A stretch of DNA of 64,000 nt from Escherichia coli. GTDB taxonomy: Bacteria; Pseudomonadota; Gammaproteobacteria; Enterobacterales; Enterobacteriaceae. The translations under genes and the position numbers were made by a program. Of the stretch, positions 134 through 43,759 are shown piece by piece; positions within the stretch are counted from its first letter, which is position 1, and the number at the start of each line of letters is the position of its first letter. The notes beneath the pieces are model-generated. The model saw nothing but the letters and a program-made list of their open reading frames with translations. It did not search any database and was not told where the DNA came from. The stretch lies in assembly GCF_017348835.2 (NCBI RefSeq), contig NZ_CP071375.1; one strand, given 5' to 3'.

Positions 134-190
134 GTCTGGTTTCAAGATTAGCCCCCGTTCTGTTGTCAGGTTTTACCTCTCAACGTGCGG
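134..190 (+). ncRNA. rdlC: Rdl-like antisense RNA (antitoxin of Ldr), interrupted in its terminator hairpin by IS4
   Basis: Sequence GTCTGGTTTCAAGATTAGCCCCCGTTCTGTTGTCAGGTTTTACCTCTCAACGTGCGG resembles Rdl RNAs as recalled; the 3' hairpin arm and T-tract (GGGTTTTCTCTTT) now lie beyond the IS4 at 1629-1641. Confidence 0.35.
179..190. repeat. 12-bp target-site duplication CTCAACGTGCGG, left copy, IS4 #1
   Basis: Identical 12-mer directly flanks both IS4 ends (179-190 and 1617-1628). Confidence 0.9.
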
Positions 191-1616
191 TAATGCCAGT
201 CAGTTAAGCAACTGACTGGCTCTTTTTCGGGGCTGTGGGGTATTTCCAGGGCCTCTCCTTTACCACTCTCGGGAAGGCCCTTTCCCTTCTTGTCGGTAAT
301 TTCACAAGTTGTCCCATACTTGCAAGATCGCGCATCAGCTCCGGTATACGTCCCGGTGAAGCGCCCTGCAATGTCATCAGCATTCTCATCACCATTCCGC
401 ATGATTCTGAGAAGCTCAGTTGATTTGGCCAGTAACCTTTCAGATGTTCCGCCATTTTAATCATCTGATATCTCACCAGATTATAAGCCAGTAAGACACC
501 CCACAGCTCTTGCTCCACAAGCTCAGGCTTTTTACTTCTCAGCGTCAGCCTGCTCAGTTGCATCGTCTGTTTTATCTCCCTGTATCCCAGTTCGATTTCC
601 CAGCGATGACTGTACAGATCCGCCATTTCTCCTCCGGGGAAGCGCATGGCGTCCGTCATCGACGTCAGCAGATGGCAGACTTTTCCTTTGCGCGTCACGG
701 TCAGCAGGCGGGCTGTCACCTCATTTCCCAGTCCCGGCCACTTTTTTCGTGCCTGCGGGCTGGTTTTCAGCTTCACCAGATGATCGCCTTTACCCAGTTT
801 TCTGATCTCTTCATATTGCGCTCCCTTTCTGAGAGGGATCATCCAGTGGCGGTGTTCTCCCGCCAGGCTCCAGGCATTTAACAATCCCAGTGAGTAATAA
901 CCTTTATCCATTAACGTCAGAGTGTTATCGCCGGTTTGTTCTATAAGTTGCTCAGCAAGCTCATTTTCGCTGTTCTTCATCGTGCCGAAGGCTGCAGCCG
1001 TCAGCAGATGGCTGGTCAGTTCCATCTGGCAGACCATTTTGACCTGCGGGTAGAGCGCCGGGGTCCCGGCATGTGTCTGGCGAGGGAAGGCTGCATCGTT
1101 CTCTGGTGTATCCGGTGTGCGCCAGAACACACCATCGATGGCCAGCAGGGTCAGGCCGCACCAGTGCGGATGCGGCGTGGCGTTATGCCAGAGCTGCGCT
1201 GTTTTCGTGAACACGCGGCGGACAGCCTCACTTCCCAGGCGCTGGCGGGCCTGAATAACAGCACTGGGGGCAACGAAGGTGCGATTGCCCGGCAGCATGA
1301 TGTCCAGGCGATTCACAATCTGGTGAAGAGGTTCTTTACGCTCAAGCGCCATGCCAACAATACACCAGACCATCATTTCGAGGGGAAGACGGCGCTTGCG
1401 TAGCGTTACAGTACCTGATTCGGCAAGGCAACGAGAGATGAGTTCGGGGTCGAGGTAATCTCCCAGAGAAGTCAGTGGGTTACGCAGAGAATCGTAACGG
1501 GATACCAGATCAAGAGCCTGTCCAATGTGCATAAAAAAATCCGGAAACGAGTGAGCGTTTCCGGATTCTTACACAGCCACTGGATCGGTCAACTGATCCT
1601 TAACTGATCGGCATTA
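191..1616 (-). mobile_element. IS4: IS4 insertion sequence, 1426 bp, imperfect 18-bp terminal inverted repeats (TAATGCCAGTCAGTTAAG / TAATGCCGATCAGTTAAG, 16 of 18 match)
   Basis: Terminal inverted repeats read at both ends, single 442-aa transposase ORF, 12-bp flanking direct repeat; length matches IS4. Confidence 0.92.
204..1532 (-). CDS. insG: IS4 transposase (442 aa)
   Basis: Full-length ORF filling the element between the inverted repeats; protein recognised as IS4 transposase. Confidence 0.9.
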
Positions 1617-1628
1617 CTCAACGTGCGG
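1617..1628. repeat. 12-bp target-site duplication CTCAACGTGCGG, right copy, IS4 #1
   Basis: Exact match to 179-190. Confidence 0.9.
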
Positions 1629-1928
1629 GGGTTTTCTCTTTCCAGCAACCAATGCCACCAGGGATAAAGCCCCCGCAACATTGCGCCTCACCGGATAACG
1701 CCGGCTTGGTGTGGATACTACGTCTCAATTCATCTTCACTTCATCCCTGAAGTGTTTGCAATGAAGAGTACATTCCGGCTTTTCAACAGCTGTTGCAGTG
1801 GTTTCGTGCAGGTTGTGGTACAGGCTCGCAATTCTGATTAACGACCTGTCCAGGTAGTATGAAGAAATACAATAAGCAGGAATTTATATTATCTCCCCCG
1901 ATTTCCGTCATCGGAGGAGATATAACTG

Positions 1929-3029
1929 TCAGGCAAATATCGTCATCAAATAGGCGGCAAACAGTGCCAGATGCGCTGCGCCATTGAGCACGTTAGTACG
2001 TCCGGTGGAGAAGGAGATATGGCACAGCACTAAAGAGGCCACCATCACCACCATTTCTGGCGCACCAAGTGCAAACTGCAATTCGTTACCCGTCATAAAG
2101 GCAATTAGCGTGACGACAGGTACGGTAAGCGAAATTGTTGCTAACACTGAACCAAAGAACAGATTCATCGCGCGCTGGACCTGGTTGTTCAACACTGCTT
2201 TTAATGCACCTAAACCTTCCGGCGACAGAATCAACAGTGCCACCAGGAAGCCAGTAAAGGCGACAGGGGCATTCATGCTGTCGAGCAAAGTCTCCAGCGG
2301 GCTGGCGTTCATTTTGGTGACTGCAATAACGGCAATCAGGTGGATAATCAACCAGATAGCATGCCACAGGCTGCTATGGGCAGATGGTTTACCGTGATGC
2401 GGGTCGTCATCATCACTGTCATCTTCGTGCTCGTAGACAAACAAACTTTGATGCGTTTTGGTCTGGATCAGCAAAAATACGCCATACATTGCCGCAGAAA
2501 TTAATGCTACCAGTAACGCCTGACCGGTTGAAAAATTCGCCGCAGGCAGAGCCATTGGAAATACCAGTACGATTATCGCCAGGGGGAACAGCGCAATTAA
2601 ATACTGCTTGATACCAAACAGATTCATATATTGGGTGGCAAACTTACGACCGCCCAACAATAATGAAAAGCCAACCAGCCCACCGGTAACAATCATAATG
2701 ATTGAATAGAGCGTATCACGCATTAGCGTTGGCGCGGCGTCGCCGGTTGCCATTAAAGCTGAAATCAAACTGACTTCAAGAATAACCACTGAAAGGCTAA
2801 GAATAAGCGAACCGTAAGGTTCTCCCAGGCGATGGGCTAATACGTCCGCATGACGGACAACACTAAAGGCGCTACTTAAAATACCAATAAGCGCAAGAAG
2901 ATTGATGGCAATGACCACTGGTAGTGTCTGGCTGCTTCCCCACAGGAACAGCACTACCAGCGCCAGAACCGGGAAAATAAGCGAAGTCTCCTTGTGGCGG
3001 GTTTTTACCGCCTCTTGAGCATTTGACAT
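1929..3029 (-). CDS. chaA: Ca2+/H+ (Na+,K+/H+) antiporter ChaA, 366 aa
   Basis: Protein recognised as ChaA; ORF-track start at 3116 is an upstream extension, start set at the ATG giving MSNAQEAVKT. Confidence 0.85.
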   Translation of the reverse strand: MSNAQEAVKTRHKETSLIFPVLALVVLFLWGSSQTLPVVIAINLLALIGILSSAFSVVRHADVLAHRLGEPYGSLILSLSVVILEVSLISALMATGDAAPTLMRDTLYSIIMIVTGGLVGFSLLLGGRKFATQYMNLFGIKQYLIALFPLAIIVLVFPMALPAANFSTGQALLVALISAAMYGVFLLIQTKTHQSLFVYEHEDDSDDDDPHHGKPSAHSSLWHAIWLIIHLIAVIAVTKMNASPLETLLDSMNAPVAFTGFLVALLILSPEGLGALKAVLNNQVQRAMNLFFGSVLATISLTVPVVTLIAFMTGNELQFALGAPEMVVMVASLVLCHISFSTGRTNVLNGAAHLALFAAYLMTIFA

Positions 3030-3529: not shown

Positions 3530-3686
3530 AACCGGTAGCTTAGTTAAAGCTATTCGTGCGGTGTTGCCTTGCAAGTGGTCCGTGGATTGCATATTGTCCC
3601 GTTAGTGGTTTCAAAATGAGCAGTAAAAATGTCCGGAAGACACCAAAAAGTTGTCGCAGGGAAGTATGCAGTGGCGGAGGTGTAAG

Positions 3687-4382
3687 GTGATAACGCGTGA
3701 TTTCTTGATGAATGCCGATTGTAAAACGGCATTTGGTGCCATTGAAGAATCACTCTTATGGTCAGCAGAACAACGGGCGGCTTCGCTGGCGGCGACGCTG
3801 GCTTGTCGACCTGATGAGGGACCAGTGTGGATCTTCGGTTATGGATCGTTGATGTGGAATCCGGCACTGGAGTTTACCGAATCGTGCACCGGTACACTGG
3901 TTGGATGGCATCGCGCGTTTTGCCTGCGCCTGACCGCCGGGCGCGGGACTGCGCACCAGCCGGGACGGATGCTTGCACTGAAAGAGGGCGGACGCACCAC
4001 AGGCGTCGCCTATCGACTGCCTGAAGAGACGCTGGAGCAGGAACTAACCCTGTTGTGGAAGCGAGAGATGATTACCGGCTGTTATCTGCCAACCTGGTGC
4101 CAGCTTGATCTTGATGATGGACGCACAGTAAACGCCATTGTGTTTATTATGGACCCGCGACATCCAGAATATGAATCTGACACTCGCGCTCAGGTCATAG
4201 CGCCGTTGATTGCGGCGGCGAGCGGTCCGCTGGGAACCAACGCACAATACCTGTTTTCACTGGAACAGGAGCTTATCAAACTGGGAATGCAGGACGATGG
4301 GCTGAATGATTTGCTGGTATCGGTAAAAAAACTGCTGGCGGAGAATTATCCGGATGGTGTGTTAAGGCCGGGATTCGCCTGA
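3687..4382 (+). CDS. chaC: Glutathione-specific gamma-glutamylcyclotransferase ChaC, 231 aa
   Basis: Protein match; start set at the GTG giving MITRDFLMNADCK (ORF-track TTG start at 3651 is an extension). Confidence 0.8.
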   Translation: MITRDFLMNADCKTAFGAIEESLLWSAEQRAASLAATLACRPDEGPVWIFGYGSLMWNPALEFTESCTGTLVGWHRAFCLRLTAGRGTAHQPGRMLALKEGGRTTGVAYRLPEETLEQELTLLWKREMITGCYLPTWCQLDLDDGRTVNAIVFIMDPRHPEYESDTRAQVIAPLIAAASGPLGTNAQYLFSLEQELIKLGMQDDGLNDLLVSVKKLLAENYPDGVLRPGFA

Positions 4383-24929: not shown

Positions 24930-24941
24930 CCCCAGAAGGGG
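24930..24941. repeat. 12-bp target-site duplication CCCCAGAAGGGG, left copy, IS4 #2
   Basis: Identical 12-mer at 26368-26379. Confidence 0.9.
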
Positions 24942-26367
24942 TAATGCCAGTCAGTTAAGCAACTGACTGGCTCTTTTTCGGGGCTGTGGGGTATTTCCAG
25001 GGCCTCTCCTTTACCACTCTCGGGAAGGCCCTTTCCCTTCTTGTCGGTAATTTCACAAGTTGTCCCATACTTGCAAGATCGCGCATCAGCTCCGGTATAC
25101 GTCCCGGTGAAGCGCCCTGCAATGTCATCAGCATTCTCATCACCATTCCGCATGATTCTGAGAAGCTCAGTTGATTTGGCCAGTAACCTTTCAGATGTTC
25201 CGCCATTTTAATCATCTGATATCTCACCAGATTATAAGCCAGTAAGACACCCCACAGCTCTTGCTCCACAAGCTCAGGCTTTTTACTTCTCAGCGTCAGC
25301 CTGCTCAGTTGCATCGTCTGTTTTATCTCCCTGTATCCCAGTTCGATTTCCCAGCGATGACTGTACAGATCCGCCATTTCTCCTCCGGGGAAGCGCATGG
25401 CGTCCGTCATCGACGTCAGCAGATGGCAGACTTTTCCTTTGCGCGTCACGGTCAGCAGGCGGGCTGTCACCTCATTTCCCAGTCCCGGCCACTTTTTTCG
25501 TGCCTGCGGGCTGGTTTTCAGCTTCACCAGATGATCGCCTTTACCCAGTTTTCTGATCTCTTCATATTGCGCTCCCTTTCTGAGAGGGATCATCCAGTGG
25601 CGGTGTTCTCCCGCCAGGCTCCAGGCATTTAACAATCCCAGTGAGTAATAACCTTTATCCATTAACGTCAGAGTGTTATCGCCGGTTTGTTCTATAAGTT
25701 GCTCAGCAAGCTCATTTTCGCTGTTCTTCATCGTGCCGAAGGCTGCAGCCGTCAGCAGATGGCTGGTCAGTTCCATCTGGCAGACCATTTTGACCTGCGG
25801 GTAGAGCGCCGGGGTCCCGGCATGTGTCTGGCGAGGGAAGGCTGCATCGTTCTCTGGTGTATCCGGTGTGCGCCAGAACACACCATCGATGGCCAGCAGG
25901 GTCAGGCCGCACCAGTGCGGATGCGGCGTGGCGTTATGCCAGAGCTGCGCTGTTTTCGTGAACACGCGGCGGACAGCCTCACTTCCCAGGCGCTGGCGGG
26001 CCTGAATAACAGCACTGGGGGCAACGAAGGTGCGATTGCCCGGCAGCATGATGTCCAGGCGATTCACAATCTGGTGAAGAGGTTCTTTACGCTCAAGCGC
26101 CATGCCAACAATACACCAGACCATCATTTCGAGGGGAAGACGGCGCTTGCGTAGCGTTACAGTACCTGATTCGGCAAGGCAACGAGAGATGAGTTCGGGG
26201 TCGAGGTAATCTCCCAGAGAAGTCAGTGGGTTACGCAGAGAATCGTAACGGGATACCAGATCAAGAGCCTGTCCAATGTGCATAAAAAAATCCGGAAACG
26301 AGTGAGCGTTTCCGGATTCTTACACAGCCACTGGATCGGTCAACTGATCCTTAACTGATCGGCATTA
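24942..26367 (-). mobile_element. IS4: IS4 insertion sequence, 1426 bp, second copy, same orientation as the first
   Basis: Same terminal inverted repeats and identical encoded proteins as the copy at 191-1616; own 12-bp target-site duplication. Confidence 0.92.
24955..26283 (-). CDS. insG: IS4 transposase (442 aa)
   Basis: Protein identical to the 204-1532 ORF. Confidence 0.9.
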
Positions 26368-26379
26368 CCCCAGAAGGGG
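26368..26379. repeat. 12-bp target-site duplication CCCCAGAAGGGG, right copy, IS4 #2
   Basis: Exact match to 24930-24941. Confidence 0.9.
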
Positions 26380-40629: not shown

Positions 40630-40852
40630 GGGCACAACTCCTTGTTCGGGAAAGTTGTAAAGTACGTTATTTGAAAGGGCGAAGATCTGCAACGGAAAGA
40701 TGATGTCTTTGTTAAGACCATGCATAAAGTAAGGTCAATCACGCCAAAAATGACATTTTCACTGATCCTGATCGTCTTGCCTTATTGAATATGATTGCTA
40801 TTTGCATTTAAAATCGAGGCCTGGTTTTTCTACTGAAATGATTATGACTTCA

Positions 40853-41548
40853 ATGACCCTTGATTTACCTCGCCGCTTCCCCTGGCCGACGTTACTTTCG
40901 GTCTGCATTCATGGTGCTGTTGTGGCGGGTCTGCTCTATACCTCGGTACATCAGGTTATTGAACTACCTGCGCCTGCGCAGCCGATTTCTGTCACGATGG
41001 TTGCGCCTGCTGATCTCGAACCGCCACAAGCCGTTCAGCCGCCACCGGAGTCGGTGGTAGAGCCAGAACCGGAACCTGAGCCGATCCCCGAACCGCCAAA
41101 AGAAGCACCGGTGGTCATTGAAAAGCCGAAGCCGGTGAAAAAGGTACAGGAGCAGCCAAAACGCGATGTCAAACCCGTAGAGTCGCGTCCGGCATCACCG
41201 TTTGAAAATACGGCACCGGCACGCCCGACATCAAGTACAGCAACGGCTGCAACCAGCAAGCCGGTTACCAGTGTGGCTTCAGGACCACGCGCACTAAGCC
41301 GTAATCAGCCGCAGTATCCGGCACGAGCACAGGCATTGCGCATTGAAGGGCAGGTTAAAGTTAAATTTGATGTCACGCCGGATGGTCGCGTGGATAACGT
41401 GCAAATCCTCTCAGCTAAACCTGCGAACATGTTTGAGCGTGAGGTGAAAAATGCGATGCGCAGATGGCGTTATGAGCCGGGTAAGCCAGGCAGTGGGATT
41501 GTGGTGAATATCCTGTTTAAAATTAACGGCACCACCGAAATTCAGTAA
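40853..41548 (+). CDS. tonB: TonB energy transducer, 231 aa here, with a short Lys-Pro repeat
   Basis: MTLDLPRRFPWPTLLSVCIHGAVVAGLLYTS N-terminus; Pro-rich (EP)n and KPKP spacer; C-terminal domain. Confidence 0.92.
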   Translation: MTLDLPRRFPWPTLLSVCIHGAVVAGLLYTSVHQVIELPAPAQPISVTMVAPADLEPPQAVQPPPESVVEPEPEPEPIPEPPKEAPVVIEKPKPVKKVQEQPKRDVKPVESRPASPFENTAPARPTSSTATAATSKPVTSVASGPRALSRNQPQYPARAQALRIEGQVKVKFDVTPDGRVDNVQILSAKPANMFEREVKNAMRRWRYEPGKPGSGIVVNILFKINGTTEIQ

Positions 41549-41558
41549 GCAGAAAGTC

Positions 41559-41582
41559 AAAAGCCTCCGACCGGAGGCTTTT
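41559..41582. terminator. Bidirectional Rho-independent terminator between tonB and yciA
   Basis: AAAAGCCTCCGACCGGAGGCTTTT, a symmetric hairpin with A/T runs on both sides. Confidence 0.8.
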
Positions 41583-41587
41583 GATTA

Positions 41588-41986
41588 TTACTCAACAGGT
41601 AAGGCGCGAGGTTTTCCTTCAGGATCAACCGCGACATACTTAAATAATGCTTCTGTCGCTTTATAGCGTTGCCCGATTGGTTCAGACGCTACTTTTTTCA
41701 CCCACACTTCAATATTAATGCTGACCGATGTCGTCCCTTTCTGGACACAGCGTGCATAGCAGCACACCACATCGCCGACCGCAACCGGCCGTAAGAAAGT
41801 CATTCCTTCAACCCGCACAGTCACTACGCGACCGTGGGCAATTTCTTTTGCCAGAATAGCGCCGCCAATATCCATTTGTGACATTAACCAACCACCAAAG
41901 ATGTCACCATTGGCATTGGTATCGGCGGGCATGGCTAAAGTACGTAAAACAAGATCGCCCTGAGGGACGTTATGTGTTGTAGACAT
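41588..41986 (-). CDS. yciA: Acyl-CoA thioesterase YciA, 132 aa
   Basis: Protein and synteny. Confidence 0.88.
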   Translation of the reverse strand: MSTTHNVPQGDLVLRTLAMPADTNANGDIFGGWLMSQMDIGGAILAKEIAHGRVVTVRVEGMTFLRPVAVGDVVCCYARCVQKGTTSVSINIEVWVKKVASEPIGQRYKATEALFKYVAVDPEGKPRALPVE

Positions 41987-43403: not shown

Positions 43404-43759
43404 GCACTCTCCTTGAGTTTTATGCAGGTGTTAATTAGCGGGCAATTGTACCCTGGTTAAGCCTCGGGTGGCAGCATCAGGTCTTGTATGGAAAAGCATA
43501 TCTTTGTAAAGCGGAGGTAATCGCTGGCCTTCAGGCGTGGGCAAACCGCGGCAAGTGGCGATCGAGTTAATATTTGCGTAGCGAAAATATTTAAAAATTG
43601 ATTTAAATCACGTTAACCAGGATTCTCAATGCAACTTCTAAATTAATCCAGATCAATAAAGGGTGAATTATCATATGTAATGTGATCTATGTAGGATCAT
43701 TTGTTACTCCAATGTAGGTATATTCGTCACGTTTTTATAACCATAACGACGGAGCGGAT

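What the first reader, a model, noticed from the sequence alone, without database searches (positions are those of the whole stretch)
41050..41140. TonB proline-rich spacer carries only two Lys-Pro repeats
The spacer reads EPEPEPEPIPEPPKEAPVVIEKPKPVKK. As recalled, K-12 TonB has (KP)6 here and is 239 aa, whereas this ORF is 231 aa from the MTLDL start. That is consistent with a 24-bp in-frame contraction of the AAGCCG repeat by slippage. A few other substitutions relative to recalled K-12 (for example MVAPADL, PPESVV) suggest a non-K-12 allele. Spacer length could affect how far TonB spans the periplasm.
Basis: partly seen in the sequence, partly recalled or inferred. Interest (0 to 1): 0.35.

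Follow-up and report, generated by a model that had tools for sequence, protein, structure and literature searches.

The report
Rare short-spacer allele of TonB
This E. coli strain carries a genuine, heritable but rare version of the well-known iron-uptake coupling protein TonB that has lost four of its six Lys-Pro spacer repeats through a 24-base in-frame deletion, a change that published deletion experiments suggest is close to harmless.

Summary
tonB lies at window 40853-41548 (+) and encodes 231 aa. K-12-lineage TonB has 239 aa. The only length difference is one 24-bp in-frame gap that reduces (Lys-Pro)6 to (Lys-Pro)2 (window 41123-41134). The ancestral tract is a degenerate AAR-CCN array. 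The deletion is bounded by a perfect 9-bp direct repeat (CCGAAGCCG) 24 bp apart, which is the signature of slipped misalignment.

It is not an assembly artefact. The identical 231-aa protein is encoded on at least 24 contigs from independent NCBI and SRA-derived assemblies. The same (KP)2 product occurs on at least three different tonB SNP haplotypes, so the deletion recurs.

It is rare. Only 1 of 5,422 complete E. coli genomes has it (strain PE164, which the window matches with 4 SNPs in 64 kb). Two genomes have (KP)4, two have (KP)5, about 120 have (KP)7 or (KP)8, and the rest have (KP)6.

The membrane anchor (S16/H20), the ExbD-binding D-box, the Glu-Pro arm, the C-terminal domain, the promoter region and the terminator are all intact. 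Published work shows the whole proline-rich region (residues 66-100) can be deleted without loss of activity unless the periplasm is expanded.

Verdict: an ordinary repeat-length polymorphism in a known protein. Interest is low.

The parts
40853..41548 (+). tonB coding sequence, 231 aa plus stop
   Evidence: ORF and translation. Annotated as tonB (WP_153645640.1) in the near-identical strain PE164. NCBIfam NF008083 scores 506.7 bits against a cut-off of 448. Pfam TonB_N and TonB_C both match.
41123..41134 (+). Residual Lys-Pro tract AAG CCG AAG CCG (K91 P92 K93 P94). K-12 has 36 nt / (KP)6 here.
   Evidence: DNA and protein alignments with the K-12-lineage and B2 alleles.
41126..41134 (+). Deletion junction. 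This is the single retained copy of the 9-bp direct repeat CCGAAGCCG, which occurs twice, 24 bp apart, in the (KP)6 ancestor.
   Evidence: Ten equivalent 24-bp deletions of the K-12 sequence (tonB nt 274-297 through 283-306) reproduce the window sequence.
41060..41098 (+). Acidic Glu-Pro arm of the spacer (EPEPEPEPIPEPP, residues 70-82), unchanged from K-12
   Evidence: Alignment.
41051..41053 (+). Codon 67, TCG (Ser), where all comparison alleles have CCG (Pro). It is a lineage-specific marker linked to the deletion.
   Evidence: T199 is found only in the window and in L004-L010, not in K-12, 3CM, uk_P46212, PS10-3, LH13-b, 7/2 or the Shigella-type alleles.
40979..41014 (+). D-box region (residues 43-54, QPISVTMVAPAD), the ExbD-binding strand. 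It carries A51 where K-12 has T51.
   Evidence: The D-box is defined as residues 43-54, QPISVTMVTPAD, in PMC10907165. A51 is shared by the other natural non-K-12 alleles inspected.
40898..40912 (+). Membrane-anchor motif, S16 to H20 of the SHLS motif, identical to K-12
   Evidence: Residues 1-50 are identical to K-12. The role of H20 is described in PMC10666116 and PMC3005593.
41276..41545 (+). C-terminal transporter-binding domain (residues 142-231, equal to K-12 150-239), identical to K-12
   Evidence: Alignment to PDB chains 9ddo_F, 1u07_A and 2gsk_B. Pfam TonB_C scores 73 bits.
40785..40814 (+). tonB promoter-like site overlapping the known Fur-regulated region (TTGAATATGATTGCTATTTGCATTTAAAAT), identical to K-12
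   Evidence: Promoter scan. The upstream comparison shows no difference from K-12 within 40785-40814. That this is the Fur site rests on established knowledge of tonB regulation and was not tested here.
41557..41584 (.). G+C-rich hairpin between the convergent genes tonB and yciA (terminator-like), sequence as in K-12
   Evidence: Terminator scan. Comparison with K-12.

Best explanation
This is tonB, the inner-membrane-anchored protein that couples the ExbB-ExbD proton-driven motor to outer-membrane TonB-dependent transporters. The window carries a natural length allele in which 24 bp (four Lys-Pro units) have been lost from the basic arm of the proline-rich periplasmic spacer.

The deletion most likely arose by misalignment of two 9-bp direct repeats (CCGAAGCCG) lying 24 bp apart in the degenerate AAR-CCN array. 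The misalignment could be replication slippage or RecA-independent short-homology deletion. The allele then became fixed in a clone of E. coli that also carries the linked P67S change.

Every element known to be needed for TonB function is intact, so the protein is expected to work as normal TonB. Its spacer is 8 residues shorter. That is about 2.5 nm as a polyproline-II rod, or about 3.2 nm of the roughly 47-nm contour length of the 118-residue linker. Any phenotype is expected only when the periplasm is unusually wide.

Shown here: the deletion and its repeat boundaries; its heritability, recurrence and rarity; and the integrity of all other parts. Inferred: the slippage mechanism and near-normal function.
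For: Sequence:
- There is one 24-nt in-frame gap against K-12 and B2 alleles.
- The gap has ten equivalent registers, which means it is flanked by a 9-bp perfect direct repeat.

A real allele:
- The exact 231-aa protein is on at least 24 contigs from separate NCBI assemblies and Logan assemblies of SRA runs. It is listed on 14 contigs.
- The same allele is found with and without an adjacent prophage.
- It is also found in a background with 29 SNPs in 4.6 kb (L010). Within tonB, L010 differs from the window at 6 sites, all synonymous.

A mutational hot spot:
- The same AAG CCG AAG CCG product sits on at least 3 distinct tonB haplotypes.
- (KP)4 arises from two different 12-bp deletions.
- (KP)5 occurs on three haplotypes.
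- (KP)7 and (KP)8 arise by unit duplications.

Frequency: (KP)2 occurs in 1, (KP)4 in 2, (KP)5 in 2, and (KP)7 or longer in about 120 of 5,422 complete genomes.

Integrity:
- NF008083 scores 506.7 against a cut-off of 448. TonB_N and TonB_C both match.
- Residues 1-50 and the C-terminal domain are identical to K-12.
- The promoter region and terminator are unchanged.

Tolerance of shortening:
- Residues 66-100 or 70-102 can be deleted without effect unless the periplasm is expanded, which gives about a 50% drop (PMC3005593).
- Domain II can be replaced by TolA domain II or by a 127-aa disordered linker and still supports colicin uptake (PMC10666116).
- The linker contour length is about 47 nm (PMC5413942).
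Against: No functional measurement exists for this allele.

(KP)6 is kept in roughly 97% of complete genomes, including both the K-12-type and the divergent B2-type tonB alleles, although the tract mutates recurrently. Contractions (5 genomes) are far rarer than expansions (about 120). This hints that shortening may carry some cost, so 'nearly neutral' could be too generous.

Cutting the basic arm from six to two Lys-Pro units unbalances it against the unchanged acidic Glu-Pro arm. Simulations cited in PMC10771500 suggest the two arms can pair as a hairpin.

Slippage cannot be distinguished from other short-homology deletion routes using sequence alone.

Independent recurrence is inferred from flanking SNPs 18 nt downstream and 72 nt upstream of the tract. 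Very short gene-conversion tracts could mimic it.
Confidence: 0.85

Rival explanations
1. Adaptive shortening. On this reading the contraction was selected because a shorter or less basic spacer changes TonB performance. Possible benefits are reduced uptake of TonB-dependent phages, colicins or microcins, or a better match to a narrower envelope. The (KP)n tract would then act as a tunable, contingency-like locus.
For: - The same contraction recurs on at least 3 haplotypes.
- The allele persists in a clone sampled many times.
- A (KP)4 allele is widespread in Shigella flexneri, listed in 136 index blocks and on 173 contigs.
- TonB is the entry route for several phages and colicins (established knowledge; colicin Ia dependence appears).
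Against: - Contracted alleles make up only about 0.1% of complete E. coli genomes.
- Deleting the whole region gives no phenotype under standard conditions, including colicin sensitivity (PMC3005593), so a partial loss is unlikely to confer resistance.
- The change is in-frame and not an on/off switch.
- Recurrence is equally well explained by a mutational hot spot.
Confidence: 0.09
2. Hypomorphic or decaying tonB. On this reading the shortened spacer, together with P67S, impairs energy transduction, and the lineage tolerates a weakened TonB.
For: - Contractions are much rarer than expansions, which is consistent with a cost.
- Complete loss of domain II abolishes function (PMC10666116).
- Removing residues 66-100 halves activity when the periplasm is expanded.
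Against: - The ORF is intact in every carrier.
- All functional motifs and the C-terminal domain are identical to K-12.
- The two S67-(KP)2 haplotypes differ by 6 synonymous and 0 non-synonymous changes.
- The regulatory region is intact.
- Eight residues is under a quarter of a region that is itself dispensable.
Confidence: 0.04
3. Assembly or sequencing artefact. On this reading the repeat was collapsed during assembly.
For: Short repeats can be mis-assembled. Among complete genomes, only one record shows the allele.
Against: - The exact protein is encoded on at least 24 contigs from different projects and assemblers, including Logan assemblies of separate SRA runs.
- The tract is only 36 nt, far below read length.
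- The linked marker T199 travels with it.
- RefSeq already holds it as WP_153645640.1.
Confidence: 0.02

Closest known systems
Escherichia coli K-12 TonB (239 aa; full-length chain in PDB 9ddo, C-terminal domain in 1u07 / 2gsk)
   Same: Same gene and the same yciI-tonB-yciA context. Residues 1-50, the Glu-Pro arm and the whole C-terminal domain are identical. NCBIfam equivalog NF008083 scores above its cut-off.
   Different: (KP)2 instead of (KP)6, so 8 residues shorter. Also T51A, P67S and L133P.
Engineered TonB deletions of residues 66-100 (Larsen, Wood & Postle 1993) and 70-102 (Postle laboratory, PMC3005593)
   Same: They remove the same proline-rich spacer and test the same question, namely whether spacer length limits reach across the periplasm.
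   Different: The engineered proteins lose the entire 33-35-residue region, including both arms. The natural allele loses only 8 residues of the basic arm and is chromosomal, at native expression.
Other natural (KP)n length alleles of E. coli / Shigella tonB: (KP)4 (named Shigella flexneri), (KP)5 (Shigella sonnei, E. coli), (KP)7 and (KP)8 (E. coli)
   Same: The same tract changes by whole Lys-Pro units, bounded by short direct repeats, in otherwise intact genes.
   Different: The window allele is the shortest form seen here. (KP)2 was found only in this clone and in a few other contigs: L018, L019, and the Shigella sonnei-type L020.
TolA domain II deletions and TolA/TonB domain-II swaps
   Same: This is a periplasm-spanning linker of a homologous force transducer. 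Shortening is tolerated until the length becomes insufficient to span the periplasm (PMC12204202; PMC10666116).
   Different: TolA domain II is alpha-helical and much longer. Those data come from engineered constructs.

Membership tests
TonB (TonB system transport protein, enterobacterial type) | Full-length match to the curated equivalog model, above its cut-off | tested here: met
   NF008083 scores 506.7 bits against a cut-off of 448 and covers residues 1-231. K-12 scores 538.
TonB (TonB system transport protein, enterobacterial type) | N-terminal signal-anchor helix with the SHLS motif (S16, H20) | tested here: met
   Residues 1-50 are identical to K-12 TonB, including LLSVCIHG.
TonB (TonB system transport protein, enterobacterial type) | D-box beta-strand (residues 43-54) flanked by prolines, for capture by ExbD | tested here: met
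   QPISVTMVAPAD is present. It differs from the K-12 peptide only at T51A, a state shared by the other natural non-K-12 alleles inspected. Binding itself was not tested.
TonB (TonB system transport protein, enterobacterial type) | Proline-rich spacer with an acidic Glu-Pro arm followed by a basic Lys-Pro arm | tested here: met
   Pfam TonB_N (polyproline region) scores 101.3 bits against a cut-off of 33. K-12 scores 130.6. The Glu-Pro arm is intact and the Lys-Pro arm is reduced to two units.
TonB (TonB system transport protein, enterobacterial type) | C-terminal TonB_C domain that binds the Ton box of transporters | tested here: met
   PF03544 scores 73 bits and TIGR01352 scores 74.6 bits. 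The sequence is identical to the solved K-12 domain.
TonB (TonB system transport protein, enterobacterial type) | Energy transduction with ExbB-ExbD to outer-membrane transporters | not testable with these tools
   This requires transport, colicin or phage assays. exbBD is not in the window.
Slipped-misalignment repeat-length polymorphism | The indel is a whole number of repeat units and is bounded by direct repeats | tested here: met
   The deletion is 24 bp, or 4 units of 6 bp. The 9-bp repeat CCGAAGCCG lies at both ends, giving ten equivalent registers.
Slipped-misalignment repeat-length polymorphism | Multiple length alleles, and recurrence on independent haplotypes | tested here: met
   (KP)2, 4, 5, 6, 7 and 8 were all observed. 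(KP)2 occurs on at least 3 haplotypes, and (KP)4 arises from two different deletions.
Contingency (phase-variable) locus | High-frequency reversible switching that turns the gene on or off, or alters its function | tested here: not met
   All changes are in-frame. The tract is short and interrupted by synonymous codon variation. About 97% of genomes share one length. The switching rate was not measured.

The most novel reading that the evidence does not exclude
The (KP)n tract of enterobacterial TonB could be a naturally tunable element. On this reading, recurrent contractions such as (KP)2 weaken pairing between the acidic Glu-Pro and basic Lys-Pro arms and shorten TonB's reach. That would measurably change how readily TonB engages ExbD or the transporters, and so alter susceptibility to TonB-dependent phages and colicins, or performance at high osmolarity. 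The allele would then be maintained by selection in particular host niches, such as pig-associated E. coli or Shigella.
Probability: 0.07. Interest if true: 0.4.

Novelty: already known. Interest (0 to 1): 0.1.

Why it matters
The significance is limited.

The gene is one of the best-studied in E. coli. The allele is already in RefSeq as WP_153645640.1. Laboratory deletions far larger than this one leave TonB functional.

The modest value lies in the survey done here, which shows three things.
- The Lys-Pro tract is a recurrent in-frame indel hot spot in E. coli and Shigella, ranging from (KP)2 to (KP)8.
- One length, (KP)6, nevertheless dominates.
- Contractions are much rarer than expansions.

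This provides a set of natural alleles for anyone testing how linker length and Glu-Pro/Lys-Pro charge balance affect force transduction. It is also a caution that length differences in tonB should not be read as errors during annotation or typing.

Tried and rejected
- **Tandem Repeats Finder** on 40800-41600 found nothing. The residual tract is too short, so this is not informative.
- **Exact-sequence look-ups** of engineered (KP)n variants gave useful positives. They also reported K-12 TonB and the common (KP)6 allele as absent from the collection, which is implausible, so I did not use that tool's negatives, for example for (KP)3.
- **Assembly artefact** was considered and rejected on the independent assemblies.
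- **Pseudogene or decay** was considered and rejected, because the ORF, motifs, promoter region and terminator are intact.
- **Literature searches** for a described natural Lys-Pro length polymorphism in E. coli tonB found nothing on point in the held library. Köhler et al. 2010 (PMC2867004) is not held, so spacer-length figures come from papers that cite it and from the standard polyproline-II rise of about 0.31 nm per residue, which is my own knowledge.
- **Fur-box test on the prophage side.** I tested whether the prophage that abuts tonB in sister strains brings its own Fur box. It has a 13/19 match, not significant (p about 0.055).
- **Prophage integration site.** No paper describing it was found.

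Full report
**What is in the sequence**

The ORF at window 40853-41548 (+) translates to a 231-aa protein beginning MTLDLPRRFPW. It contains the quoted string EPEPEPEPIPEPPKEAPVVIEKPKPVKK at residues 70-97. It lies between yciI and yciA, which is the normal tonB context.

The protein scores 506.7 bits on the NCBIfam TonB equivalog NF008083, whose cut-off is 448. It matches Pfam TonB_N and TonB_C.

The whole 64-kb window is collinear with the chromosome of E. coli PE164 (pig, Nanjing; NZ_CP114128.1, 2248843-2312842). There are only 4 SNPs, and 3 of them lie in IS4 copies. The window therefore comes from that strain or a sister isolate.

**Comparison with the reference**

I compared the window gene with tonB of the K-12-lineage strain RR1 (239 aa) and with a B2-type allele (238 aa). 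It shows a single 24-nt gap.
- K-12 reads GAA AAG CCG AAG CCG AAA CCT AAG CCA AAA CCG AAG CCG GTG.
- The window reads GAA AAG CCG AAG CCG GTG.

The full-length TonB chain of PDB 9ddo gives the same result.

Ten different 24-bp deletions of the K-12 gene (nt 274-297 through 283-306) give the window sequence. This means the deletion is bounded by a perfect 9-bp direct repeat, CCGAAGCCG, with copies 24 bp apart. That is the classic substrate for slipped misalignment. The ancestral tract is a degenerate AAR-CCN array rather than a pure AAGCCG repeat.

The amino-acid differences from K-12 are T51A, P67S and L133P. A51 and P133 occur in every non-K-12 allele I inspected. S67 (T199) and a synonymous C442 are private to this lineage.

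**Is it an artefact?**

No. The identical 231-aa protein is encoded on at least 24 contigs from separate NCBI assemblies and from Logan assemblies of individual SRA runs (14 contigs listed).

Carriers include strains with the ordinary yciI-tonB junction and strains with a prophage inserted at the tonB start. One contig (L010) has flanks that differ from the window at 29 of 4,652 positions, and its tonB differs at six sites, all synonymous.

**How rare is it, and does the tract vary otherwise?**

Among 5,422 complete E. coli genomes that contain tonB, only PE164 has the (KP)2 length.

A query built on a (KP)4 allele showed the following.
- Two genomes have (KP)4.
- Two have (KP)5.
- One has a tract 21 nt longer than (KP)6.

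About 120 genomes gave split alignments. In all 59 that I inspected, the span corresponded to (KP)7 or (KP)8. About 950 genomes, mostly B2-type, carry a separate 3-nt deletion after VKKV, giving 238 aa.

In the wider protein collection:
- (KP)2 also exists on the common P67 background, named Shigella sonnei.
- (KP)4 is frequent in Shigella flexneri, on 173 contigs.
- (KP)5 occurs in S. sonnei and E. coli.

At the DNA level, the AAG CCG AAG CCG product sits on at least three different tonB haplotypes. They are distinguished by SNPs as close as 18 nt downstream and 72 nt upstream of the tract. (KP)4 arises from two different 12-bp deletions, and (KP)5 is found on three haplotypes.

The tract is therefore a recurrent in-frame indel hot spot. 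(KP)6 still accounts for about 97% of genomes, and contractions (5 genomes) are far rarer than expansions (about 120).

**What it probably does**

Everything known to be required for TonB action is unchanged:
- the signal anchor with S16/H20;
- the D-box strand that ExbD captures (residues 43-54, defined in PMC10907165);
- the Glu-Pro arm;
- the entire C-terminal domain;
- the promoter region with the known Fur-regulated sequence;
- the terminator hairpin shared with yciA.

The literature indicates tolerance of much larger losses.
[quoted passage not shown] Activity then falls by about half (PMC3005593, citing Larsen 1993 and Seliger 2001).
- Domain II can be replaced by TolA domain II or by a 127-aa disordered linker and still supports colicin uptake. 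Complete removal abolishes it (PMC10666116).
- The 118-residue linker has a contour length of about 47 nm (PMC5413942).

Eight residues correspond to about 2.5 nm of polyproline-II rod, using 0.31 nm per residue (my own knowledge), or about 3.2 nm of contour. I therefore expect a functional TonB whose only plausible weakness is reduced reach when the periplasm is widened.

A caveat is that the basic arm is cut from six to two units while the acidic arm is unchanged. Simulations suggest the two arms can pair as a hairpin that may mask the ExbD-binding motif (PMC10771500). The dominance of (KP)6 hints at some stabilising selection on length.

**Rivals**

- An assembly artefact is excluded.
- A decaying or hypomorphic gene is unlikely, given the intact ORF and motifs and the purely synonymous divergence between the two S67-(KP)2 haplotypes.
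- Adaptive shortening, for example against TonB-dependent phages or colicins, cannot be excluded. It has no positive support beyond recurrence, which a mutational hot spot explains equally well. The full-region deletion does not change colicin sensitivity in the laboratory.

**Comparison with what is known, and verdict**

This is a member of the TonB family by every sequence criterion tested. It is a repeat-length allele of a kind that databases already hold (WP_153645640.1). I found no paper in the held library that describes natural Lys-Pro length variation in E. coli tonB.

It is not a phase-variable locus. All changes are in-frame, and one length dominates.

The finding itself is ordinary and of low interest.

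Noticed in passing
Related loci L005, L008, L009 (about 1390-3000), L020, L025; L017 (O111:H- 11128) 3622-4002. The corresponding window position is 40851/40853.: In sister strains, including some with the same (KP)2 tonB, a prophage encoding a 506-aa large serine recombinase is inserted with its junction two bases before the tonB ATG (CA|ATGACC). This displaces the native promoter and Fur-regulated region. The same junction is present in 229 of 5,422 complete E. coli genomes. In O111:H- 11128 it is a remnant carrying nleG and espM1. The phage side has a 13/19 Fur-box-like match, which is not significant (p about 0.055). I found no paper describing this integration site or how tonB is then expressed.
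   Followed up: partly
window 189-1617 and 24940-26368: Two IS4 copies in the same orientation (1,429 bp, 99.9% identical) bracket about 23 kb that includes chaABC, narLXK-GHJI, tyrTV, purU, rssAB, galU, hns and tdk. Three of the four SNPs between the window and PE164 lie inside these copies (851, 1466, 25711), which suggests polishing differences in repeats.
   Followed up: partly
L021 and L022, position 503 (codon 1 of tonB): The Shigella flexneri-type (KP)4 tonB has ATA instead of ATG as its first codon in two assemblies. This could lower translation initiation.
   Followed up: no
E. coli genome hits H42-H100 (for example L012, L013, L014); H105 (AH19E045): Expanded tonB tracts occur in about 120 complete genomes. 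They are (KP)7 (241 aa, duplication of AAG CCG), a KPNP(KP)5 variant, and (KP)8 (243 aa, duplication of AAG CCA AAA CCG on the K-12 haplotype). One genome has a tract 21 nt longer than (KP)6 and was not inspected.
   Followed up: partly
L003 (uk_P46212) tonB nt 295-297 region; about 950 genomes with a span of 916: B2-type tonB is 238 aa because of a separate 3-nt deletion that removes Gln just after VKKV. This is a second common length variant of the spacer's C-terminal flank.
   Followed up: no
window 43431-43520 (-): A short remnant annotated in PE164 as an incomplete YkgJ-family cysteine-cluster protein pseudogene lies between yciC and ompW. The same remnant is annotated in O111:H- 11128.
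   Followed up: no
window 43830: This is the only SNP between the window and PE164 outside the IS4 copies (T against C). It lies inside ompW.
   Followed up: no
tool behaviour: The exact-sequence look-up reported K-12 TonB and the commonest (KP)6 allele as absent from a 15-billion-protein collection, while finding rare variants. Negative results from that look-up should not be trusted for very common proteins.
   Followed up: no
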